From Candidatus Firestonebacteria bacterium RIFOXYD2_FULL_39_29 (lineage in GTDB: Bacteria > Oederibacteriota > D2-FULL-39-29), in contig MFGV01000084.1 in NCBI GenBank assembly GCA_001778375.1, positions 858 to 64,857 of the forward strand: DNA of 64,000 nucleotides, written 5' to 3'. The notes beneath the pieces are model-generated. The model saw only the letters and a list, made by a program, of their open reading frames with translations, was not told the origin of the DNA and searched no databases. The translations under genes were made by a program, and so were the position numbers. Shown here piece after piece: positions 4,883-13,794 of this stretch (within the stretch, counting starts at the first letter, position 1; the number at the start of each line of letters is the position of its first letter).

Positions 4883-5506
4883 TTATTTTCTTACTTCGAA
4901 TTTTAGAGGAAGACGGAAGGTTACTGCTTTTCCCATTTTTCCGGGCAATGGCCTGAAAGGTGACGCAGCTTTTACGGTACGAACTGCTTCATTATCCAGG
5001 GCATCGTCGCCCGACGAATAAAGTACATTTATTTTATTTAATATTCCATTATCTTCTATGGTTATCTCAAGCAGGGTTTTTCCCTCGCTGCCTTCTTCCA
5101 GGGCTTTCTTCGGATATCTTTTTAATCTTTCTATTCTCTCCTTAAAAGCAGAGAACCAAGCAGCAGTCTCCGGATCCGTATCGGAGAACCCGCTGCCGTC
5201 TCCTGTTTCGGCAGTTCCGGTCTGTGAAGGGCCTGAACTTTCTCTTTTTTCAAAAGCAGTATTGCCAACCGTTTCTACGGGGGCTTTTAATTCCTCATTT
5301 ACAGTTTGTATCTCCGCTTTAATAATGGGGACTGTTTCCAATGCCTTTGTTTTCACTTTATTAACAGGGATATAGATTTTTCCCTGATAATAGCTGACTT
5401 CAATAATACGGCCAGTACTCTCCTTCTCTTTTTTTGAGGGAGAAAGCGAAAGCGCCGCAAACAGAAGCGCATGCAAACCTATGGAAATCGCTAAAAATAT
5501 TTTCAT
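4883..5506 (-). CDS. tonB: TonB-family energy transducer
   Basis: N-terminal TM helix, acidic/Pro-poor linker, and a C-terminal TonB_C-like block (GKTLLEITIEDNGILNKINVLYSSGDDALDNEAVRTVKAASPFRPLP). Lies directly downstream of the receptor gene. Confidence 0.75.
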   Translation of the reverse strand: MKIFLAISIGLHALLFAALSLSPSKKEKESTGRIIEVSYYQGKIYIPVNKVKTKALETVPIIKAEIQTVNEELKAPVETVGNTAFEKRESSGPSQTGTAETGDGSGFSDTDPETAAWFSAFKERIERLKRYPKKALEEGSEGKTLLEITIEDNGILNKINVLYSSGDDALDNEAVRTVKAASPFRPLPGKMGKAVTFRLPLKFEVRK

Positions 5507-5538
5507 TTACTAGAAAAAGACTCCTCAAATGTAAACCT

Positions 5539-5566
5539 AGAACCAAGGACCCAGGGCCCAGAACCT
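5539..5566. repeat. Four in-phase degenerate heptamers AGAACCA AGGACCC AGGGCCC AGAACCT
   Basis: Read directly in the tonB-btuB spacer. Confidence 0.8.
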
Positions 5567-5577
5567 GCTCTTTACCG

Positions 5578-7404
5578 TTAGAACGTCAGTTTCACCCCCG
5601 CATTTAACGTTCTTCCCGGAAGCGGGTAGCTTTCTCTAAGTTCATAAACAGTATTCAAAATATTTTTCGCCGAGAAAATAAGCGTCACCTCTTTTATAAT
5701 CATAAGGTCTAATTTCGCATTTAAGGTAATAAAACTCGGGAGTGTTGTGACGGTACTTGCCTGTCTGACATCATAATATTCCGCATCTATTTTTAATTTC
5801 TGGCCAAGTAATTCATAGGCAACTCCAAGATTAGCTTTATTTTTTGGCCTGTATAAAAGTTCCAGATTTGTAATTTTATTTAAAGCCACCAGCCAGGTAT
5901 GTCCGGCAAACACATTGAGATTTTCAGCACATTTAATTTTAAGTTCTGATTCCACACCGTAGGTCTCTGCTTCTCCTACATTCGAGGGGGTCCAATCAAA
6001 AGAAGTCATATAGGTAGGATCTATAGGCGCCCAGTCTATAAGATCCTTTATCTGATTATTAAAATATGTAGTAGTTAAAATAGCAGACCTTCCGAACTCA
6101 AGATTTAAACCCGCTTCAAAAGAATTAGTTTTCTGCGGCAGTAACAAAGGATTCCCCGGCCCGCCCATAGCAGAAGTCGAATACAGTTCGGAAAAAGTCG
6201 GAGCTCTGAAAGAAGTGCCATAGGAGGTTCTTATCTGCACCCCGTCTTCAATATTATATACAAGCGCAAGCATTGGATTAAATGAATCACCATAAATAGA
6301 ATGACTGTCATAGCGCGCAGAAGCAGTAAATATCCAGGAACCGAGAAGATCGATTATATCCTGCGCAAAGCATGATTTTGTTGTGGCATTGTGGTCTCCC
6401 ATCCAATTTTGTTCATTCACACTATAATTGCCGCTTAAACCGATCGTAAATATATTAATTCCGCCAAAATCGTAAGTATAGGTTGTTTCGGTAAAAAAGT
6501 TTCTTTCTTCGCTCAAGGTAAAAATACCCGGCTGGAAAAAATTCAAAATACTTTTGCTCCCGTTTATTTTTACCCTAATATCGGAATCTTCGGTTAGAGG
6601 CAGGCGATAATCCACCCCGGCATTCAACCTTTCCATTTGCTGGCGGTCTAAGGGGGTCAACCAGAGCAAGGAACCGGGAGCACCGCTGTCGCTCTTGTAA
6701 GCCGTAAGGAGGGTTTTTAACGTATGATTTTTTGCAAAATCATATGAAAGTGAAAGACTCAGGTCATTGCTTAAAACATCACTATTCACCCTCTGACCGT
6801 TGGTAGCAAGATGCGAGCCTGAAAGATTCAAAGAAAGACCGCCCAGGTTATCTGAATATGAAGCCCTGAGGTCTTTAGTTGCAAACGAACCGTAAAAAGT
6901 TGAGATCTCCAGTGACCGTTTTTCTACACGGCTTTTAGTTATAATATTTATAACTCCGCCCGCCGCGTCCGCTCCGTAAAGCGAAGAGGCCGGACCCTTC
7001 AACACTTCAATTCTTTCTATGTTATCAAGAGGCAGCGAGGAAAAATCAACAAGGCCCTGATATGAAGAGTTTAACCTTACACCGTTTATAAGCACCAGAG
7101 TTCCTTCAGAGCCGATTCCACGGATCATAACGCTTTGCGTCTGTCCAATTGCTCCGACTTTTCCCGAGTCAACACCGGGAATCTCAGAAACTGCCAGACC
7201 TGCATTCTTATCCCCGCCGTTTGCAACTTTTGAATCATCAACTATAGCAAGCGAGCCGGGAGATTCCCTAAGCGCTTTTTCCACTCTGGAACCGGTAACA
7301 ACAATATCATCCAGCTGGAAAAACTCTTTTTCAGGTTTAACCGTGCCACTATCTTCCGCAAAAGCAGATACAGCAAGTACCAGTACGAGCAATAACTTTT
7401 TCAT
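5578..7404 (-). CDS. btuB: TonB-dependent outer-membrane receptor, BtuB-like (cobalamin/cobamide)
   Basis: Signal peptide, TonB box/plug (DDIVVTGSR..), 608 aa beta-barrel ending in ..GVKLTF. Sits in the riboswitch-controlled B12 operon. Confidence 0.8.
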   Translation of the reverse strand: MKKLLLVLVLAVSAFAEDSGTVKPEKEFFQLDDIVVTGSRVEKALRESPGSLAIVDDSKVANGGDKNAGLAVSEIPGVDSGKVGAIGQTQSVMIRGIGSEGTLVLINGVRLNSSYQGLVDFSSLPLDNIERIEVLKGPASSLYGADAAGGVINIITKSRVEKRSLEISTFYGSFATKDLRASYSDNLGGLSLNLSGSHLATNGQRVNSDVLSNDLSLSLSYDFAKNHTLKTLLTAYKSDSGAPGSLLWLTPLDRQQMERLNAGVDYRLPLTEDSDIRVKINGSKSILNFFQPGIFTLSEERNFFTETTYTYDFGGINIFTIGLSGNYSVNEQNWMGDHNATTKSCFAQDIIDLLGSWIFTASARYDSHSIYGDSFNPMLALVYNIEDGVQIRTSYGTSFRAPTFSELYSTSAMGGPGNPLLLPQKTNSFEAGLNLEFGRSAILTTTYFNNQIKDLIDWAPIDPTYMTSFDWTPSNVGEAETYGVESELKIKCAENLNVFAGHTWLVALNKITNLELLYRPKNKANLGVAYELLGQKLKIDAEYYDVRQASTVTTLPSFITLNAKLDLMIIKEVTLIFSAKNILNTVYELRESYPLPGRTLNAGVKLTF

Positions 7405-7422
7405 ATTAAAATCCTCCTATTT

Positions 7423-7529
7423 AATTACAATGACTATTGACTAATTACTAATGACTATTTAATGAGGATTATTATATATGCTGTTTACAGCTTCCTTAAA
7501 TAGTCATTAGTCACTAGTACTTAGTCATT
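7423..7529. repeat. Inverted-arm intergenic element, TAGTC-heptamer family, copy 1
   Basis: Left arm is AATTACAATGACTATTGACTAATTACTAATGACTATTT. Right arm is TTAAATAGTCATTAGTCACTAGTACTTAGTCATT, an imperfect reverse complement. The right arm includes the cobS stop codon. Confidence 0.8.
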
Positions 7530-8262
7530 AATATTTTAATTTTATTGCAAAAATTAACAAGGCTGCAACTTCCGTCACTTCCACCGTGAAACCGAAAATA
7601 TCTCCTGTAACGCCGCCAAGCTTATTTTTAAAGTATTTCATGATAATCAGCGCCGCTGCTGCCGCGCAGACAAAAGCAACAAGACCCCGCAGGCCGAAAA
7701 ACACTGAAAGAAGCAGGGCAAATGCAGTTATTATTATGAACTGCGTGTTTGTAATGTTTTGACAGTATACCTTCCCCATTCCGTACTTTTTAGCATAGGG
7801 AGAATATTTCATTAATATTGTCATGGAATATCTTCCCAAAACAGGGAAAAGTAATAATGCTGGATAAACATTGTAAAAGGAAAGTTTTATTATAATAATT
7901 ACTTTTAGAAGTAAAATAAAGGCTGCCCAGGCTGCCCCTTTTGCGCCGGTTGCGCTGTCTTCCATTATCCTGAAAATATCTTTTTTTGTTCTTCCGCCGT
8001 ATAAACCGTCTACCGTATCCGTAAACCCGTCAAGGTGCAGGGCTCCGGTTAAAAGCAGATATACACCGATAACAAGGACCGAAGGAAGCAAAAATACAAA
8101 TATTTTGCTGAAAACAAAATATGATAAGGCCAGCAAAGCTCCTATTATAAGTCCGACAAGAGGATAATAGGTAACCGATCCCGGGAGTTCATTTTGTTTT
8201 ATATTTTTTATTTTAAACGGAATATTTGTCAGGAACTGTAAAGCAATAAGAAAACTTTTCAC
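7528..8262 (-). CDS. cobS: Adenosylcobinamide-GDP ribazoletransferase (cobalamin synthase)
   Basis: 244 aa polytopic protein with the HLDGFTDTVDGL motif. 4-nt overlap with cobU. Confidence 0.85.
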   Translation of the reverse strand: MKSFLIALQFLTNIPFKIKNIKQNELPGSVTYYPLVGLIIGALLALSYFVFSKIFVFLLPSVLVIGVYLLLTGALHLDGFTDTVDGLYGGRTKKDIFRIMEDSATGAKGAAWAAFILLLKVIIIIKLSFYNVYPALLLFPVLGRYSMTILMKYSPYAKKYGMGKVYCQNITNTQFIIITAFALLLSVFFGLRGLVAFVCAAAAALIIMKYFKNKLGGVTGDIFGFTVEVTEVAALLIFAIKLKY

Positions 8263-8804
8263 TTCTTTACCTCCAGAGGGATCCCTGATACCAGAAAAAA
8301 CACCTTTGCTGCACGTTCTGCAAAAATACGGTTAACCCGGCCCTGAATATCCCTGAAATCCCGGCCCAGCTTATTATCCGGGACCAGTCCCATACCTACT
8401 TCATTTGAGACTGCGATAACTTCCGCTTTTGCACCGGCGCAATACTTTGCAATTTCTTCCGCCGACGTCAATATCTCTTTTTCTTTTTCCCCTTTCATCA
8501 TCCTATTCGACACCCAGAGAGTCAGACAATCAATAAGAATAACCCTGTTTTTTTTATCCCCGCTTTTTACAGACTTTAAAAGATCAAGAGGTTCTTCCAC
8601 AGTGCACCAGCCTTCCCCCCGCTGTTTTTTATGCCTCTTTATCCTTTTTTTCATCTCCTCATCCAACCCTTGCATGGTAGCAATATACACCCTGTCTTTT
8701 GCACTCTTTACAGCCAATTCCTCCGCAAAAGAAGATTTCCCGCTCCGCGCACCACCGGTGATGAAGGTTAAGCTACTTACTTGGGGCATACTCTTTGTTT
8801 CCAT
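8259..8804 (-). CDS. cobU: Adenosylcobinamide kinase / adenosylcobinamide-phosphate guanylyltransferase
   Basis: P-loop ITGGARSGKSSFAE, about 180 aa, in operon context. Confidence 0.85.
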   Translation of the reverse strand: METKSMPQVSSLTFITGGARSGKSSFAEELAVKSAKDRVYIATMQGLDEEMKKRIKRHKKQRGEGWCTVEEPLDLLKSVKSGDKKNRVILIDCLTLWVSNRMMKGEKEKEILTSAEEIAKYCAGAKAEVIAVSNEVGMGLVPDNKLGRDFRDIQGRVNRIFAERAAKVFFLVSGIPLEVKK

Positions 8805-8828
8805 GCAAAAGCTCCTGTACTGCCATGA

Positions 8829-8972
8829 AATTACTAATGACTATTGACTAATGACAATTTAATGAATACGGCAAAGTACCGCCGTAGCATTTAATAAAAC
8901 AATATATTTATGTAGGCGGAAAGCTTTTTTCCGCCATCCTAAAATAGTCACTAGTCATTAGTACTTAGTCAT
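8829..8972. repeat. Inverted-arm intergenic element, TAGTC-heptamer family, copy 2
   Basis: Arms are AATTACTAATGACTATTGACTAATGACAATTT and AATAGTCACTAGTCATTAGTACTTAGTCATT. The interior carries hairpins ACGGC-N8-GCCGT and GGCGG-N11-CCGCC. Confidence 0.85.
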
Positions 8973-8973
8973 T

Positions 8974-10017
8974 CTATTTATTACTCACTCCTGCACTTTC
9001 AAACGTTGCCATTTCATTCAGGATCTTCACCGCCGCTTCAATAATACTCATAGAAAGCGCCGCGCCGGTACCTTCTCCGAGCCGGAGCTCAAGGTTTAAT
9101 ATCGGCTTAAGCTTTAAATGCTCCAGAGCAAATTTATGTCCGTTTTCTACGGAATTATGAGAGGCAATTATATATTCACCGGCTTTCGGTTCTATACCCA
9201 CTGCGATAAGTGCGGCCGCTGTTGAAATAAAGCCGTCAATCACCACCGGTACTTTTCTCATGGCTCCGCCGAGTATCACTCCTGCAAGCCCGCCTATTTC
9301 AAATCCCCCGACCTTAGAAAGAACATCTATCGCATCCCTACGGTCCGGCTTATTAACCGCTATTCCCTTTTCGATCAGCGCTATCTTATTTGCCAAACCT
9401 TTATCATCAATTCCTGTTCCCCGGCCTGTCACTTCTTTCACTGCTTTCCCCGTATATATGGAAGTAATCGCCGCGCTAGGGGAGGTATTTCCAATTCCCA
9501 TATCCCCAGTACCGATAATATCCAATTCTTTCTCTATAAAGACAACATCAATACCTGCTTCTATACTTTTAAGAGCGTCTTCCCTAGTCATCGCAGGACC
9601 TGACGTAAAACTTTTTGTTCCCATACCGATTTTCTTATCAACCAACCCTTTTATTCCTTTAAAATCATAATTAACACCCATATCTACAATGATAACCTTC
9701 GCTCCAACATGCCTGGCAATAACATTTATTCCCGCCCCGCCGTTTAAAAAGTTAAGCACCATTTGCGGGGTTACTTCCATAGGATAGGCTGACACTCCTT
9801 CCCTCGCAATCCCATGATCTCCTGCCATAGTAAATATAACTTTATTATTTAATACCGGATTCTTCTTTCCGCTTATAGCTACAACTGTTTTCGCAATCTC
9901 CTCAAGCCGCCCCAGACTACTGAGAGGTTTTGTAAGAAAATCCAACCGTTTTTGCGTAGCTGACAGCAGGTTCTTGTCTGTACCGGATATCTTTAGTTCA
10001 TGTTTACCTATTTTCAT
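8974..10017 (-). CDS. cobT: Nicotinate-nucleotide--dimethylbenzimidazole phosphoribosyltransferase
   Basis: 347 aa with DMGIGNTSPSAAI and GEGTGA motifs typical of CobT. Confidence 0.9.
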   Translation of the reverse strand: MKIGKHELKISGTDKNLLSATQKRLDFLTKPLSSLGRLEEIAKTVVAISGKKNPVLNNKVIFTMAGDHGIAREGVSAYPMEVTPQMVLNFLNGGAGINVIARHVGAKVIIVDMGVNYDFKGIKGLVDKKIGMGTKSFTSGPAMTREDALKSIEAGIDVVFIEKELDIIGTGDMGIGNTSPSAAITSIYTGKAVKEVTGRGTGIDDKGLANKIALIEKGIAVNKPDRRDAIDVLSKVGGFEIGGLAGVILGGAMRKVPVVIDGFISTAAALIAVGIEPKAGEYIIASHNSVENGHKFALEHLKLKPILNLELRLGEGTGAALSMSIIEAAVKILNEMATFESAGVSNK

Positions 10018-10034
10018 TTATACTCCTTTAAAAT

Positions 10035-10152
10035 AATTACAAAGTACGAATTACAAACTACAATATATGGTGTTATATACATATTTATTAAATATTGCGG
10101 GAGCTTTTCCCGCATTCATAAAATTGTCAATTGTCATTCGTCAATCGTAATT
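10035..10152. repeat. Intergenic element with heptamer arms and a conserved core hairpin
   Basis: Left arm is AATTACA AAGTACG AATTACA AACTACA. Core is TAAATATTGCGGGAGCTTTTCCCGCATTCATAAAAT. Right arm is TGTCAAT TGTCATT CGTCAAT CGTAATT. Confidence 0.85.
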
Positions 10153-10157
10153 TTTTT

Positions 10158-10691
10158 TTAGTACTCTATTCCTTTCCTTGCCGACACCCCTTTATCATAC
10201 GGGTGCTTTATTGCTTTCATTTCTGTTACCATATCGGCGGTTTTTATTATTATTTTTGAGGCATTTCTTCCGGTCAAAACCAGTTCCGTTGTTTTTGATT
10301 TGTTTTTTATTAAATTCAACAGCTCTTTTTCGCTTATTAATCCTCCAAAAACACAATTACTTATTTCATCCAGGATAACCAGATCGTATTTCCCGTTCTG
10401 ACTTGCATCTATTGCTGCATCGAACAGAAGTTCCGCATTCATTTTAAGTTCTGTCAAAGAAATATTTTTATCGAACATCGGATGCGTTTGGTCATTTCTG
10501 AATATTTTAACATTCTTAAATTTCTTAGAAAGCACAAGCTCTCCGGTTTTATTTCCGTTTGCTTTTAAGAATTGAAAGATTGCGATCTTAAAACCATTCC
10601 CGGCCGCCCTAAGCGCCAGACCGAAAGCCGCAGTGGTTTTTCCTTTCCCTTCCCCAGTATATATTTGAACCAGCCCCTTTTTTAATTTCAT
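10158..10691 (-). CDS. cobO: Cob(I)yrinic acid a,c-diamide / cob(I)alamin adenosyltransferase (CobA/CobO/BtuR type)
   Basis: IYTGEGKGKTTAAFGLALRAAG P-loop, 177 aa, 4-nt overlap with the upstream ATPase gene. Confidence 0.85.
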   Translation of the reverse strand: MKLKKGLVQIYTGEGKGKTTAAFGLALRAAGNGFKIAIFQFLKANGNKTGELVLSKKFKNVKIFRNDQTHPMFDKNISLTELKMNAELLFDAAIDASQNGKYDLVILDEISNCVFGGLISEKELLNLIKNKSKTTELVLTGRNASKIIIKTADMVTEMKAIKHPYDKGVSARKGIEY

Positions 10692-11440
10692 AGCAACACA
10701 TTCCCCTTTATCAGATTTACGTTAACGCCATAGACATCTTTTATTATTTTTCTCGTAACTACTTTTTTTGCCGTTCCTTCCGTATAGATCCTCCCCTTTT
10801 TTAAAAGTACCAGCTTTTTGCAGTATTTCGAAGCAAGATTAATATCATGAGAAATCATAATTACCGTTATTTTTACATTTTCATTCAACTTTTTTACAAG
10901 TTCAAGAATATCATACTGATGATTGATATCCAGATGACTTGTCGGTTCATCCAGTAAAAGGACTTTCGGCATTTGCGCTAAGGCGCGGGCAATAAAAACC
11001 CTCTGCCTTTCCCCGCTGCTTAATTCATCAATGTTCCTGTCTTTAAAGCGTGAAATATCCGCAAGCTTCATCGCGGAATTAACAATATCAACATCCTCTT
11101 TCCCTTCCCAGGAAAACCTTTTAATGTACGGAGAGCGCCCCATCATCACAATTTCAAATACCGTAAACGGAAATATAATTGTTTCATCCTGCGGGACCAT
11201 AGCAATATTTTTGGCAACAAACCCGGTATCCAGTTTAAATATATCCTGACCTTTGAAAAACACATTCCCTGCTCCGGGTTTTAACCCTCTGCAAAGCATT
11301 TTAAGAAGTGTTGTTTTACCCGAACCGTTAGGCCCTATTATCCCGATAAAATCAGCTTCTTCAACAGAGAGATTGATATTATTCAACACCTGCTTTTCCC
11401 CGTAGCCGAACGTTATGTTTTTTGCTTCAAGTATTTTCAC
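10688..11440 (-). CDS. btuD: ABC transporter ATP-binding protein (BtuD/FepC-like)
   Basis: Walker A GPNGSGKTT, signature LSSGERQRV, Walker B LLLDEP. Start re-set to a GTG overlapping the btuC TGA (GTGA). The longer track ORF would overlap btuC by 100 nt. Confidence 0.85.
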   Translation of the reverse strand: MKILEAKNITFGYGEKQVLNNINLSVEEADFIGIIGPNGSGKTTLLKMLCRGLKPGAGNVFFKGQDIFKLDTGFVAKNIAMVPQDETIIFPFTVFEIVMMGRSPYIKRFSWEGKEDVDIVNSAMKLADISRFKDRNIDELSSGERQRVFIARALAQMPKVLLLDEPTSHLDINHQYDILELVKKLNENVKITVIMISHDINLASKYCKKLVLLKKGRIYTEGTAKKVVTRKIIKDVYGVNVNLIKGNVLL

Positions 11441-12459
11441 TTTTTCCTCTTTAAAAGATACAAAAATAACGGACCGCCTAAGATCGCGGTAACCACTCCT
11501 GTAGGTATTTCTGACGGTGCTATTACGCTCCTGCAAAGCGTATCCGAGAGAATTAAAAATATTCCACCGAGGAGTGCAGAGACCGGTATAAGAATACGGT
11601 GATCCGGCCCGACGATCATCCTTGCTATATGAGGAATTATCAGACCTACAAAACCAATCAGGCCGCTTACGGATACGGCAAGAGCCGTGAGCATAGAAGT
11701 CAGAACAAAGAGCATTTTTTTTACTTTTTCGGTTTTTACTCCAAGAAAAACCGCAGTTTCTTCTCCAACAGCAATAATATTCAGATCATTGCTGAACATG
11801 TAGATGACAAACATTAAAAGCAAGGCGACCGGGGTAATATAAGGAAGCAGATCATAGTTCGTATTATTTAAAGTACCCATCATCCAAACCACCACTTCTG
11901 CAAGTCCTTTATTTGAAACTGTGATAATAAGCATTATAAGAGCAGAAAAAGAAAAGTTAATAATAACCCCTGAAAGAAGTAATGTGTGTAAAGAGATCTT
12001 CCCTTTATTCCGGGCCAGACCATACACTAAGAACATTGATAAAAGCGCACCTGCAAACGCGGCAAAAGGGACTACAGGAACTCCAAAGAAGAAAAACGGC
12101 AAACTTGAAAGTATTATAATAGCAGCTCCAAGCGCCGCACCGCTTGAAACCCCTAGAAGATAAGGATCCGCAAGCGGATTTTTAAGAAGACCCTGAAATA
12201 CCGCGCCTGAGACCGAAAGTGAAGCACCGACTAAAAGAGCCAGCAAAACCCTGGGTATCCTGACTTTAAAAAGTATATCAGAGATAGTTTCATCCCAGGT
12301 AACAGGAATATACCCGCTGACTGCCGGTATTTTAGAAAGCATTATCTTAATTGCCGCACCCGGCTCAATAAAAACACCGCCTATAAATATCCCAAGGAAA
12401 ACACTCGAAATTAAAAGTATTATTCCAAGCAGTATGTAAGTTTTAAATCTATTTTTCAT
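11437..12459 (-). CDS. btuC: FecCD-family ABC permease (BtuC-like)
   Basis: About 340 aa with 9-10 TM helices and the typical FecCD C-terminus (GVVTAILGGPLFLYLL). Start set at ATG 12459; the track start is a GTG lying inside a dispersed repeat. Confidence 0.85.
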   Translation of the reverse strand: MKNRFKTYILLGIILLISSVFLGIFIGGVFIEPGAAIKIMLSKIPAVSGYIPVTWDETISDILFKVRIPRVLLALLVGASLSVSGAVFQGLLKNPLADPYLLGVSSGAALGAAIIILSSLPFFFFGVPVVPFAAFAGALLSMFLVYGLARNKGKISLHTLLLSGVIINFSFSALIMLIITVSNKGLAEVVVWMMGTLNNTNYDLLPYITPVALLLMFVIYMFSNDLNIIAVGEETAVFLGVKTEKVKKMLFVLTSMLTALAVSVSGLIGFVGLIIPHIARMIVGPDHRILIPVSALLGGIFLILSDTLCRSVIAPSEIPTGVVTAILGGPLFLYLLKRKK

Positions 12460-12474
12460 TTTACCTTTTGAAAA

Positions 12475-12520
12475 CGATTCCACTTCCGCCAGTTATATAG
12501 GGCGGATCTCTCGAAGAGAT
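12475..12520 (+). repeat. CCGCC-hairpin dispersed repeat, copy R1 (variant 5' end)
   Basis: CGATTCCACTTCCGCCAGTTATATAGGGCGGATCTCTCGAAGAGAT, near-identical to 22609-22654. Confidence 0.8.
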
Positions 12521-12535
12521 TGCAACTACAAATCA

Positions 12536-13366
12536 TCAAATATATTGCTCCAATAGTTTTTTTGTTATCTCTCGTGTTTTCTGCACTTCTCTCCGTCTTT
12601 GTTTTTCCGTTATTGCGATATCCTTCATGTGCGGTTTAAGTTCAAGTGTGGCCACGCAGCCTTTCGCAAGCTTCTTTGAATCTTTCAATATTTTAAAAAC
12701 CTCAGCATAATCCATATTTCCTCTCCCTAAAGGGAGGTGCGAATCTTCTTCGCCGTTGTTGTCATGGACATGCAGCTCGACAACGGAAAGCGGCAGCGAG
12801 TTGATATACTCGGAAATATTTTCTTTATCAATAAGTCCTTTTTTTACCGCAATATTCATATGCCCGAGGTCTAAAAGAATCCCGAGCCGCTTTGACTTTA
12901 TCGCTTTACTTATTTTTTGAAAATCAGAGATCTTTGAATTAACTGTCCAGTTTTCAATACCTACTTTAACTCTTGAGATATTCTTTAGAGTAAATTTGAG
13001 CGCCTTTATCGTATTATTCGCATTATAAACCACATCATGCCTTTCCCCAACTTCATCAAAAGCAGGGTCAAAACAGATATTTAAAACATGTTTTTCCATT
13101 TTGTTTCTTTTTATAAAACCTTTAATGTTATCCAGTCTGGTTTTCAGATCTTTTAAAAACCTTTTTTTTTTCATGGAGAAGAACGCCAGATGAAAAGTAA
13201 CAACTAATTTATTTTTCTTTATCGCCTCCGCAACGGCTTTTTCACTTGCATCTTCAAAGGAACTACCTAAAAAACTAATGGACGTAAATCCCATTCCGGC
13301 TAAATGGTCAATTGTATTAATAATGGACTTTTTTCGTATGTTCCAGATAGCGATACCAATCTTCAT
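12536..13366 (-). CDS. Xylose-isomerase-like TIM barrel / AP endonuclease 2 family protein; candidate CbiR-type cobamide-remodelling phosphodiesterase
   Basis: Fold-family motifs GILLDLGHMN and ELHVHDNNGEEDSHLPLGRGNMDY. It is the first gene after the cobalamin riboswitch. The CbiR assignment is by context and superfamily only. Confidence 0.55.
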   Translation of the reverse strand: MKIGIAIWNIRKKSIINTIDHLAGMGFTSISFLGSSFEDASEKAVAEAIKKNKLVVTFHLAFFSMKKKRFLKDLKTRLDNIKGFIKRNKMEKHVLNICFDPAFDEVGERHDVVYNANNTIKALKFTLKNISRVKVGIENWTVNSKISDFQKISKAIKSKRLGILLDLGHMNIAVKKGLIDKENISEYINSLPLSVVELHVHDNNGEEDSHLPLGRGNMDYAEVFKILKDSKKLAKGCVATLELKPHMKDIAITEKQRRREVQKTREITKKLLEQYI

Positions 13367-13396
13367 TGAGTCAATTTTCCTTTCTTAAAATAATTT

Positions 13397-13482
13397 TGTC
13401 ATTGCGAAACCTGCCTTTTGGTTGAAGCAATCTCGTTTTTTTATAGATTGCTTCGTCGTAAAAACTCCTCCTCGCAATGACA
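13397..13482. repeat. Nested palindromic element in the riboswitch-to-gene leader
   Basis: Outer arms TGTCATTGCGA (13397-13407) / TCGCAATGACA (13472-13482). Inner arms GAAGCAATCT (13424-13433) / AGATTGCTTC (13445-13454). Confidence 0.75.
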
Positions 13483-13487
13483 GAGCC

Positions 13488-13534
13488 CCAAATAAAAATG
13501 CACCTGCTTGTATTTTCACATACAAGCGAGGTGC
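13488..13534 (-). terminator. Intrinsic terminator, likely the riboswitch expression platform
   Basis: The minus strand reads GCACCTCGCTTGTATGTGAAAATACAAGCAGGTGC followed by ATTTTTATTTGG. Confidence 0.65.
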
Positions 13535-13589
13535 ACCCGTTCTAACTTGGCCCGCTAATTAAAAAACCGTTTATCCTTTGTTCCTCGAA

Positions 13590-13760
13590 GGAGACGGTGA
13601 TTCATTTTACGGTAAGGTTTTCTGGCTCGAAGGTCCAACCTACTCTTCCGCCTTCCCGTCCGCCGGAGGCGAGACAGTGGCTCTGGAATTTCGTTCCTTC
13701 TTACAGCACCGGGAGTGCGCCGGATTCACACCGGCTTCCCTACACCGCAAAACAACTACG
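13590..13760 (-). promoter_or_regulatory. Cobalamin (AdoCbl-type) riboswitch aptamer
   Basis: The minus strand reads GGGAAGCCGGTGTGAATCCGGCGCACTCCCGGTGCTGTAAG..GCCACTG..GGGAAGGCGG..GAGCCAGAAAACCTTACC. This matches the conserved GGGAA-GGTG-AA-CC, GCTGTAA, GCCACTG, GGGAAGGC and B12-box blocks. Confidence 0.9.
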
Positions 13761-13765
13761 CTTGT

Positions 13766-13794
13766 ATTCTAGCCAACATAATATTTTTTGTCAA
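13766..13794 (-). promoter_or_regulatory. Sigma-70-type promoter for the riboswitch operon
   Basis: Minus strand TTGACA (13794-13789), 17-nt spacer, TAGAAT (13771-13766), just upstream of the aptamer. Confidence 0.6.

What the first reader, a model, noticed from the sequence alone, without database searches (positions are those of the whole stretch)
12536..13366. First gene after the B12 riboswitch is an AP-endonuclease-2 / xylose-isomerase-fold protein: candidate CbiR cobamide-remodelling enzyme
The 276-aa protein has the TIM-barrel metal-site pattern of the AP endonuclease 2 / sugar phosphate isomerase superfamily (..LDLGHMN.., ..ELHVHDNNGEEDSHLPLG..). Generic pipelines would label it a sugar phosphate isomerase/epimerase.
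Established knowledge: CbiR of Akkermansia muciniphila belongs to this superfamily. It is encoded in a B12 salvage operon and hydrolyses the phosphoribosyl bond of the cobamide nucleotide loop. That yields cobinamide-phosphate, which CobU, CobS and CobT rebuild with a preferred lower ligand.
The gene content here (CobU, CobT, CobS and CobO present, CbiB absent) fits that bypass exactly. If the assignment is correct, this organism remodels imported cobamides.
Basis: inference. Interest (0 to 1): 0.6.

Follow-up and report, generated by a model that had tools for sequence, protein, structure and literature searches.

The report
B12-operon metalloenzyme, not a true CbiR
The first gene behind the only vitamin-B12 riboswitch of this Firestonebacteria genome is a real metal-dependent TIM-barrel enzyme that fills the same operon slot as the known cobamide-cutting enzyme CbiR, but it belongs to a different branch of that superfamily and its activity is untested.

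Summary
A 276-aa PF01261 protein (12536-13366, minus strand) is the first gene after a promoter, a cobalamin riboswitch and a terminator. It heads an operon encoding BtuC, BtuD, CobO, CobT, CobU, CobS, a TonB-dependent receptor and TonB.

The assignment to CbiR is only partly supported.
- The protein scores 25.7 bits on the NCBIfam CbiR model, whose cutoff is 105.
- It is 13-15% identical to four bona fide CbiRs that I recovered (252-259 bits).
- In profile comparison and in an ML tree it sits with uncharacterised relatives from non-B12 contexts, apart from the CbiR clade. An AU test cannot exclude a joint clade (p 0.19).

Several findings still favour a cobamide role.
- The gene leads the same riboswitch operon in 11 of 12 genomes of its order.
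- It keeps 8 of the 9 endonuclease-IV-type metal ligands.
- True CbiR operons hold the same gene set, and they too lack a linked CobC.
- The genome has no CbiB, CbiZ, CbiC or CobQ, but it encodes eight B12-binding proteins.

My best reading, at about 45%, is an independently recruited functional analogue of CbiR that cuts the cobamide nucleotide loop. The main rival, at about 20%, is a replacement for the CobC phosphatase. Earlier notes of this scan describe similar off-branch cases on other DNA.

The parts
13766..13794 (-). sigma-70-like promoter (TTGACA, 17 nt, TAGAAT)
   Evidence: 11 of 12 consensus matches, directly upstream of the riboswitch aptamer. This is a consensus match only.
13594..13764 (-). 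cobalamin riboswitch aptamer (RF00174)
   Evidence: 89.9 bits, E 6e-21, full model; the only RF00174 match in the genome; conserved upstream of the orthologous gene in 9 of 12 related loci; the other three loci are cut by contig ends.
13491..13538 (-). intrinsic terminator of the riboswitch expression platform
   Evidence: an 18-bp bulged hairpin, -25.2 kcal/mol, z -5.2 against shuffles, followed by UUUUUAUUU.
12536..13366 (-). 276-aa PF01261 TIM-barrel metalloenzyme, the finding itself; a distinct lineage, not CbiR proper
11437..12483 (-). BtuC-type ABC permease (FecCD)
   Evidence: PF01032, 320.8 bits. BtuC NF007081, 290 bits, below that model's cutoff.
10688..11440 (-). BtuD-type ABC ATPase; the true start is probably near 11440, inside the longer TTG ORF 10688-11536
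   Evidence: ABC_tran 118.6 bits and the corrinoid ABC ATPase model 253 bits. Matches begin at about residue 34 of the long ORF.
10158..10691 (-). CobO/BtuR corrinoid adenosyltransferase
   Evidence: PF02572, 192.6 bits.
8974..10017 (-). CobT, nicotinate-nucleotide:base phosphoribosyltransferase
   Evidence: TIGR03160, 441.7 bits (cutoff 319).
8259..8804 (-). CobU, cobinamide kinase / cobinamide-phosphate guanylyltransferase
   Evidence: NF004469, 206 bits (cutoff 161).
7528..8262 (-). CobS, cobalamin-5'-phosphate synthase
   Evidence: TIGR00317, 140.5 bits (cutoff 110).
5578..7404 (-). TonB-dependent receptor, BtuB-like
   Evidence: Plug plus beta-barrel domains. The best NCBIfam hit is TonB-B12 at 215 bits, below its cutoff.
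4883..5506 (-). TonB-family protein
   Evidence: TonB_C, 56 bits.

Best explanation
The gene encodes a cytoplasmic, metal-dependent phosphoesterase with the xylose-isomerase-like TIM-barrel fold. It is transcribed only when usable cobamide is scarce, because the riboswitch terminator is then open. It is made together with the corrinoid importer (TonB-dependent receptor, TonB, BtuCD), the adenosyltransferase CobO and the nucleotide-loop enzymes CobT, CobU and CobS.

Proposed mechanism, which is inferred:
1. It hydrolyses the phosphodiester of the nucleotide loop of imported cobamides, as CbiR does.
2. That releases the unwanted lower-ligand riboside and leaves cobinamide-phosphate, or cobinamide, which the CobU kinase would rephosphorylate.
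3. CobU activates the product to the GDP form.
4. CobS joins it to the alpha-riboside phosphate that CobT makes from the preferred base.

The protein is not an orthologue of CbiR. It belongs to another lineage of the same endonuclease-IV-like branch of PF01261. In one order of Firestonebacteria that lineage was recruited into the B12 operon. It is therefore best called a functional analogue, a parallel recruitment.

Shown here: the gene, the fold, the conserved metal ligands, the riboswitch operon and its conservation, and the equivalence of gene sets with true CbiR operons. Inferred: the substrate and the bond that is cut.
For: Context
- It is the first gene behind the only cobalamin riboswitch of the genome.
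- The operon order gene-BtuC-BtuD-CobO-CobT-CobU-CobS-receptor is kept in 11 of 12 genomes of the order, across three families and down to 41% identity.
- The riboswitch lies upstream in all 9 loci that are not truncated.
- The gene overlaps btuC by 4 nt in L003 and L035.

Equivalence with true CbiR operons
- L073 and L078 read riboswitch-BtuF-BtuC-BtuD-CobO-CobT-(CobQ)-CobS-CbiR-CobU.
- L093 and L130 read riboswitch-receptor-CbiR-CobU-CobS-(PF01902)-CobT.
- The PF01902 gene also occurs in the Firestonebacteria operons L037, L038 and L039.
- True CbiR loci lack a linked CobC (0 of 4, against 31 of 45 other CobU+CobS loci). The operons studied here lack it too.

Active site
- All nine positions that are invariant H/H/E/D/H/H/D/H/E in endonuclease IV sequences align. 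Eight are identical (H59, E138, D166, H169, H199, D208, H210, E242) and the ninth is D100.
- CbiR keeps the same set.
- The NCBIfam CbiR model is nominally the top hit. hhalign to a CbiR profile gives 98.8% probability, E 8e-17.

Need
- The genome has no CbiB, CbiZ, CbiC or CobQ.
- It encodes eight B12-binding-domain proteins: five B12-radical-SAM enzymes, a corrinoid protein, an aminomutase subunit and one more.
- A separate bona fide endonuclease IV exists at 234 bits, so DNA repair is already covered.
Against: - The protein is not a CbiR family member: 25.7 bits against the 105-bit cutoff, and 13-15% identity.
- The CbiR signature spacing (HxHG ... DH) is replaced by HVHDN ... DxH.
- Its nearest relatives (30-37% identity) share every invariant residue. 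That includes the lineage signatures W8, S31, D100, W140 and E197. They lie in non-B12, often carbohydrate, contexts. The chemistry may therefore be generic to that family and need not be cobamide-specific.
- The metal-ligand set is shared by a whole branch of PF01261, so it does not point to CbiR activity in particular.
- The gene set also works as plain cobinamide salvage without any remodelling enzyme.
- Families f2 and f3 of the order have no CobC-like gene at all. The phosphatase rival explains this more directly.
- There are no biochemical data.
Confidence: 0.45

Rival explanations
1. The protein is a non-orthologous replacement for CobC. It would remove the 5'-phosphate from adenosylcobalamin-5'-phosphate or from alpha-ribazole-5'-phosphate, which is the last step of nucleotide-loop assembly. 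No remodelling would be involved.
For: - The operon has CobT, CobU and CobS but no CobC.
- Six genomes of the order (families f2 and f3, two of them at least 96% complete) have no CobC-like match at E <= 1e-15. Family f1 has only an unlinked match of 75-94 bits, below the cutoff of 163.
- CobS-positive genomes of families f5, f6, f8 and f15 in the same phylum have a CobC-like gene on the same contig as CobS and lack this protein.
- Omnitrophota operons place CobC next to BtuD and CobU.
- From established knowledge, endonuclease IV has 3'-phosphatase activity, so such multi-metal sites can hydrolyse phosphomonoesters.
Against: - Bona fide CbiR loci show the same lack of a linked CobC (0 of 4), so the complementary distribution does not separate the two readings.
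- Many CobS-positive genomes have neither a linked CobC nor this protein (family f12, L056, L062).
- The genome studied here has a histidine phosphatase whose best family is CobC, at 88 bits.
- No PF01261 enzyme is known to act as CobC.
Confidence: 0.2
2. The protein is a true CbiR orthologue that has diverged beyond the reach of the family model.
For: - NF041277 is the top NCBIfam hit for this protein. It is also the commonest weak hit among 64 relatives, matching 18 of them.
- The AU test does not reject a tree that joins this group with CbiR (p 0.19).
- The operon context is the same as for CbiR.
Against: - The score is 25.7 bits against a cutoff of 105, and none of the 64 relatives scores better than E 2.7e-11.
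- hhalign scores 120 to CbiR but 202 to a non-B12 254-aa family, and that family is itself closer to CbiR, at 161.
- The free ML tree puts the group inside a clade with SH-aLRT support of 99, together with relatives from non-B12 contexts. CbiR forms its own clade with support of 97.
- The signature residues W8, S31, D100, W140 and E197 are shared only with those non-B12 relatives.
- No genome of the phylum has a CbiR above the cutoff.
- Firestonebacteria are absent from Table S1 of Mok et al..
Confidence: 0.07
3. The protein is a sugar or sugar-phosphate isomerase, epimerase or phosphoesterase. It would either act on a small molecule tied to lower-ligand supply (for example a riboside or ribazole derivative), or it is a passenger with no cobamide substrate.
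For: - The nearest relatives sit beside fucose isomerase, PfkB kinase, transaldolase, glycosyltransferase, fucosidase and GH42-like genes.
- The top solved structures are ketose 3-epimerases and the epimerase-like MJ1311 (3wqo).
- The genome has 12 PF01261 paralogues.
Against: - The gene keeps a strictly conserved first position in the riboswitch operon across three families, with translational coupling to btuC.
- Scores on the curated epimerase and isomerase models are 17-25 bits against cutoffs of 272-317.
- The extra His/Asp ligands H59, H169, D208 and H210 are absent from the four-ligand ketose 3-epimerase site (established knowledge of that family).
Confidence: 0.25

Closest known systems
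CbiR, cobamide remodelling phosphodiesterase (Akkermansia muciniphila Amuc_1679; NCBIfam NF041277; Mok et al. 2020, PMC7733943)
   Same: - Same superfamily (PF01261) and the same endonuclease-IV-like set of His/Asp/Glu ligands.
- Similar size, about 270 aa.
- Encoded in riboswitch-controlled operons with BtuCD or a TonB-dependent receptor, CobO, CobT, CobU and CobS, and without a linked CobC.
- Often placed next to transport genes.
   Different: - It scores 25.7 bits against a cutoff of 105 and is 13-15% identical.
- It has D100 where CbiR has the second His, and HVHDN...DxH where CbiR has HxHG...DH.
- It carries the lineage signatures W8, S31, W140 and E197, which CbiR lacks.
- It forms a separate clade in the ML tree.
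- Its activity is untested.
MJ1311 of Methanocaldococcus jannaschii (PDB 3wqo, 'D-tagatose 3-epimerase-like protein', function unknown)
   Same: It is the best solved relative by sequence (E 5.7e-12, 49 bits over residues 133-234) and by fold (Foldseek E 4e-12, TM 0.73-0.76). It shares the LDxGHxN and HxHDNxGxxDxHLxxGxG motifs.
   Different: Identity is only 23%. The N-terminal half is barely alignable. I saw no B12 context for it, and its function is also unknown.
Endonuclease IV (Nfo, TIGR00587)
   Same: All nine metal-ligand positions align and eight are identical. It is a phosphodiesterase that cleaves the P-O3' bond, which is the chemistry proposed here.
   Different: The Nfo models give no match at E <= 0.01. 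The genome has its own Nfo at 234 bits. The substrate proposed here is a cofactor, not DNA.
CbiZ amidohydrolase (PF01955), the other cobamide-remodelling entry enzyme
   Same: The proposed role is the same: opening imported cobamides so that the lower ligand can be exchanged.
   Different: The fold and the bond cut are unrelated, and CbiZ needs CbiB afterwards. Neither CbiZ nor CbiB was found in this genome.

Membership tests
CbiR (NCBIfam NF041277 equivalog) | Whole-protein HMM score at or above the curated cutoff of 105 bits | tested here: not met
   The score is 25.7 bits. Four positive controls recovered here score 252-259 bits. None of 64 relatives scores better than E 2.7e-11.
CbiR (Mok et al. 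2020 definition) | BLAST-detectable homology to Amuc_1679 (E < 1e-3; E < 1e-14 for the tree set) | not testable with these tools
   The Amuc_1679 sequence could not be fetched. As proxies, 'Firestonebacteria' does not occur in the paper's supplementary tables, and identity to true CbiRs is 13-15%.
CbiR (Mok et al. 2020 definition) | [quoted passage not shown] | tested here: inconclusive
   In the quick ML tree the orthologue group has SH-aLRT support of 99. It lies inside a clade, also at 99, with relatives from non-B12 contexts. CbiR is a separate clade with support of 97. The AU test does not reject joining the two (p 0.19, delta lnL 21.5). hhalign ranks CbiR below a non-B12 family.
CbiR (Mok et al. 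2020 definition) | [quoted passage not shown] | tested here: met
   It is the first gene of the operon riboswitch-BtuCD-CobO-CobT-CobU-CobS. This arrangement is conserved in 11 of 12 genomes of the order.
CbiR (Mok et al. 2020 definition) | Conserved His, Asp and Glu metal-binding residues | tested here: met
   H59, E138, D166, H169, H199, H201, H210 and E242 align with invariant CbiR residues. The second His is Asp (D100). The Asp before H210 is spaced DxH rather than DH. These residues are shared by a wider branch of the superfamily, so they are not diagnostic.
CbiR | Hydrolyses cobamides to cobinamide-phosphate plus alpha-riboside | not testable with these tools
   This needs an enzyme assay.
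PF01261 AP_endonuc_2 / xylose isomerase-like TIM barrel | Pfam score above the gathering cutoff, and a (beta/alpha)8 fold | tested here: met
   The score is 64.8 bits against a cutoff of 31.1. The AlphaFold2 model has pLDDT 95.7. All top Foldseek matches in the PDB belong to this fold.
Endonuclease IV (TIGR00587) | HMM score at or above 129.65 bits | tested here: not met
   There is no match at E <= 0.01. A separate gene on contig C54 scores 234 bits.
Ketose or sugar-phosphate 3-epimerases (NF007360, NF009688, TIGR00542, NF051856) | HMM score at or above the curated cutoffs of 272-317 bits | tested here: not met
   Scores are 17-25 bits.

The most novel reading that the evidence does not exclude
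A second lineage of endonuclease-IV-like TIM barrels, unrelated by descent to CbiR at family level, has been recruited as the lead enzyme of a riboswitch-controlled cobamide import and loop-assembly operon. It acts on the nucleotide loop either as a convergent remodelling phosphodiesterase or as the long-missing analogue of the CobC phosphatase. Cobamide loop processing by PF01261 enzymes would then be polyphyletic. It would also be more widespread than searches based on CbiR homology report.
Probability: 0.55. Interest if true: 0.6.

Novelty: new variant of a known kind. Interest (0 to 1): 0.5.

Why it matters
Predictions of which microbes can remodel cobamides currently rest on homology to CbiZ or CbiR. 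This lineage is invisible to the CbiR model and is annotated only as 'sugar phosphate isomerase/epimerase' or 'TIM barrel protein'. If it does the same job, remodelling capacity in environmental, B12-auxotrophic lineages is under-counted.

If it is instead a CobC analogue, it would fill a common gap in reconstructions of nucleotide-loop assembly. Either outcome can be tested directly with one recombinant protein and published assays.

There is also a warning for annotation. A 254-aa family with no B12 context scores 50-74 bits on the CbiR model. Weak CbiR hits alone should therefore not be trusted.

Tried and rejected
- The search for related loci with the family alignments A1 and A2 failed because no stretch was conserved enough. 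I used a CobT alignment instead to reach other phyla.
- A profile search with the 50-74-bit CbiR-like paralogues of the phylum (A3) returned only a large unnamed 254-aa family, mostly archaeal. It found no named CbiR.
- A search for longer, fused forms found none, which is weak evidence.
- No solved CbiR structure turned up. Sequence and fold searches of the PDB gave MJ1311 and ketose epimerases, and the fold alone does not discriminate between the readings.
- The ESM Atlas feature search gave only generic PF01261 clusters.
- Labelling outgroups for the tree with NCBIfam mostly failed, because most distant hits belong to no curated family.
- L081 looked like a second off-branch B12-linked case. 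Its gene lies upstream of the riboswitch rather than behind it, and in the tree it groups away from this lineage.
- The DNA-repair endonuclease IV reading was rejected because the genome has its own nfo.
- A role as the missing periplasmic BtuF was rejected. The N-terminus is the first barrel strand with no signal peptide, and a Peripla_BP_2 protein is encoded elsewhere.
- Literature searches for MJ1311, for later work on CbiR and for Firestonebacteria with cobalamin gave nothing further.

Full report
**Observation.** The window carries an ORF at 12536-13366 on the minus strand (276 aa, ATG start). It matches PF01261 (AP_endonuc_2, xylose isomerase-like TIM barrel) at 64.8 bits over residues 20-247. 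With a 64-sequence alignment it folds into a confident (beta/alpha)8 barrel (pLDDT 95.7, pTM 0.93).

Upstream on the same strand lie three regulatory elements:
- a TTGACA-17-TAGAAT promoter-like site at 13794-13766;
- a full-length cobalamin riboswitch aptamer at 13594-13764 (89.9 bits);
- a strong hairpin followed by a U-run at about 13491-13538 (-25.2 kcal/mol, z -5.2).

This is the only cobalamin riboswitch in the 3.0-Mb, 96%-complete genome. Downstream, in the same orientation, follow BtuC, BtuD, CobO, CobT, CobU, CobS, a BtuB-like TonB-dependent receptor and TonB. Close homologues are named Candidatus Firestonebacteria by their sources and are annotated only as 'TIM barrel protein' or 'sugar phosphate isomerase/epimerase'.

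**Is it a CbiR?** The curated NCBIfam equivalog for CbiR (NF041277) is nominally the best NCBIfam hit. It scores only 25.7 bits against a cutoff of 105, and fructoselysine 3-epimerase scores 24.9 bits.

To obtain positive controls I scanned genome contigs with a CobT alignment. I then searched the 80 loci returned for PF01261-like ORFs. Four proteins score 252-259 bits on NF041277: L073 and L078 from Chloroflexota, and L093 and L130 from Thermodesulfobacteriota. Six more above-cutoff members came from genome searches.

- The window protein is 13-15% identical to the true CbiRs.
- Profile against profile, its family matches CbiR at E 8e-17 (score 120). It matches an unrelated-context 254-aa family at E 2e-29 (score 202). 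That 254-aa family is itself closer to CbiR, at score 161.
- In a 72-sequence ML tree rooted on endonuclease IV, the Firestonebacteria orthologues form a clade with SH-aLRT support of 99. This clade lies inside a larger clade, also at 99, made of uncharacterised relatives. CbiR forms its own clade with support of 97.
- An AU test does not reject a tree that forces the orthologues and CbiR together (p 0.19). Phylogeny alone is therefore not decisive.
- Discrete characters agree with the free tree. W8, S31, D100, W140 and E197 are shared by the orthologues and their non-B12 relatives and are absent from CbiR.
- CbiR has HxHG...DH where this protein has HVHDN...DxH.
- No genome among 99 of the phylum has a CbiR above the cutoff.
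- Firestonebacteria do not appear among the 282 homologues tabulated by Mok et al. (PMC7733943).

I conclude that the protein is not a member of the CbiR family as that family is defined.

**What the wider family looks like.** An exhaustive search found 894 relatives at E <= 1e-3, but only five at E <= 1e-30. Relatives at 41-84% identity occur only in the same order: 11 of 12 genomes in three families, and none in the other 87 genomes of the phylum.

The next relatives (30-37% identity) share all invariant residues. They lie beside methyltransferases, AIM24/GH42-like genes, fucose isomerase with PfkB and transaldolase, a glycosyltransferase, or a fucosidase. None lies beside cobamide genes. 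The B12 association is thus a specific recruitment in one order.

**Context conservation.** In every orthologous locus the gene is first. It is followed by BtuC-BtuD-CobO-CobT-CobU-CobS-receptor; in one family CobO comes directly after it. The riboswitch lies upstream in all nine loci that are not cut by a contig end. In two lineages the gene overlaps btuC by 4 nt.

**Comparison with operons of true CbiR.**
- L073 and L078 read riboswitch-BtuF-BtuC-BtuD-CobO-CobT-(CobQ)-CobS-CbiR-CobU.
- L093 and L130 read riboswitch-receptor-CbiR-CobU-CobS-(PF01902)-CobT.

This is the same parts list as the window's operon, with CbiR where the window has its own TIM barrel. The accessory PF01902 gene also recurs in three Firestonebacteria operons. 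This is the strongest argument that the protein works like CbiR.

**Active site.** Aligned with bona fide endonuclease IV sequences of the phylum, all nine positions that are invariant H/H/E/D/H/H/D/H/E there are occupied. They read H59, D100, E138, D166, H169, H199, D208, H210 and E242. These are the three-metal ligands of endonuclease IV (established knowledge, Hosfield et al. 1999, as cited in PMC7733943). CbiR keeps the same set.

Ketose 3-epimerases use only four of these positions (established knowledge). This favours phosphoester hydrolysis over isomerisation. However, the same ligands are kept by the non-B12 relatives and by the 254-aa family, so they do not identify the substrate.

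**Genome logic.**
- CbiB, CbiZ and CbiC were not found. A CobQ query also found nothing. The organism therefore cannot make corrinoids and cannot use the CbiZ route.
- It encodes eight B12-binding-domain proteins.
- A product of cobinamide-phosphate would enter directly at the CobU guanylyltransferase step. Plain cobinamide would enter through the CobU kinase.
- The same gene set also supports simple cobinamide salvage, so the absence of CbiB is compatible with remodelling but not specific to it.

**The main rival.** The operon lacks CobC.
- Within the order, families f2 and f3 have no CobC-like match at all. Family f1 has only a weak, unlinked one; the copy in this genome scores 88 bits, with CobC as its best family.
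- Elsewhere in the phylum, CobS-positive genomes of four families have a CobC-like gene on the CobS contig and lack this protein.

That complementary pattern would fit a CobC replacement. But among 49 CobT loci that also carry CobU and CobS, 31 have a linked CobC, while the four with true CbiR have none. These four probably represent only two independent lineages. The pattern therefore mirrors CbiR operons and does not separate the hypotheses.

I give the readings these odds:
- CbiR-like phosphodiesterase: about 0.45.
- CobC analogue: about 0.2.
- Another small-molecule or passenger role: about 0.25.
- Cryptic true CbiR: under 0.1.

**Novelty and earlier notes.** Earlier notes of this scan report, on other DNA, B12-locus TIM barrels judged to lie off the CbiR branch (e1-963497, e1-1479101). 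None shares sequence words with this protein, and I did not test them. If those notes hold, they point to repeated recruitment of PF01261 lineages into cobamide loci. I rate this finding as a new variant of a known kind and as moderately interesting. One enzyme assay would test it.

Noticed in passing
L037:8246-8896, L038:12922-13602, L039:6379-7110, L093:9280-9930: A PF01902 (Diphthami_syn_2, PP-loop ATPase) gene sits inside cobamide salvage operons. It occurs in three Firestonebacteria relatives, in a true-CbiR operon and in 9 of 80 CobT loci. It is absent from this window and genome. Its role in B12 salvage is unknown to me.
   Followed up: partly
L037:7419-9960: One relative (G016) has an Asn_synthase-like gene, the PF01902 gene and a BtuF-type binding protein inserted between CobO and BtuC of the same operon.
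   Followed up: partly
L073, L078, L093, L130 and the other CobT loci L056-L135: Loci with bona fide CbiR have no linked CobC (0 of 4). By contrast, 31 of 45 other loci with CobU and CobS do have one. The CbiR genomes carry unlinked CobC-like genes at 130-141 bits.
   Followed up: partly
L008, L009, L010, L014, L015 (Firestonebacteria and relatives) and P0169-P0288: A widespread 254-aa PF01261 family, with many members in DPANN and other archaea, scores 50-74 bits on the CbiR model. In the two loci whose neighbours I checked there is no cobamide context; in L009 it lies beside an acyl-CoA ligase. Weak CbiR hits could therefore be over-read.
   Followed up: partly
L081:7110-8202: A Deltaproteobacteria MAG has a sub-threshold CbiR-like gene (92.5 bits) immediately upstream of the riboswitch, not behind it. 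That riboswitch controls CobO-CobU-x-CobT-CobS-CobC.
   Followed up: partly
window 4883-13794; genome contig C33:25938-26603: The operon has BtuC and BtuD but no periplasmic binding protein. The only Peripla_BP_2 gene of the genome is unlinked, on contig C33.
   Followed up: partly
G014:C30:4572-5393 (L022, L041): The orthologue in one genome of the same genus is reported with an in-frame TAA. This could be a sequencing error or a pseudogene.
   Followed up: no
L003:5853-7349 and L073:11044-12564: A CobQ-type amidotransferase occurs in some of these salvage operons. In L003 no CbiB is called in the 9.2 kb fetched; the L073 locus was not searched for CbiB. It may re-amidate imported corrinoids.
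   Followed up: no
window 13397-13482: The leader between the riboswitch terminator and the start codon is about 120 nt long and holds further palindromic sequence.
   Followed up: no
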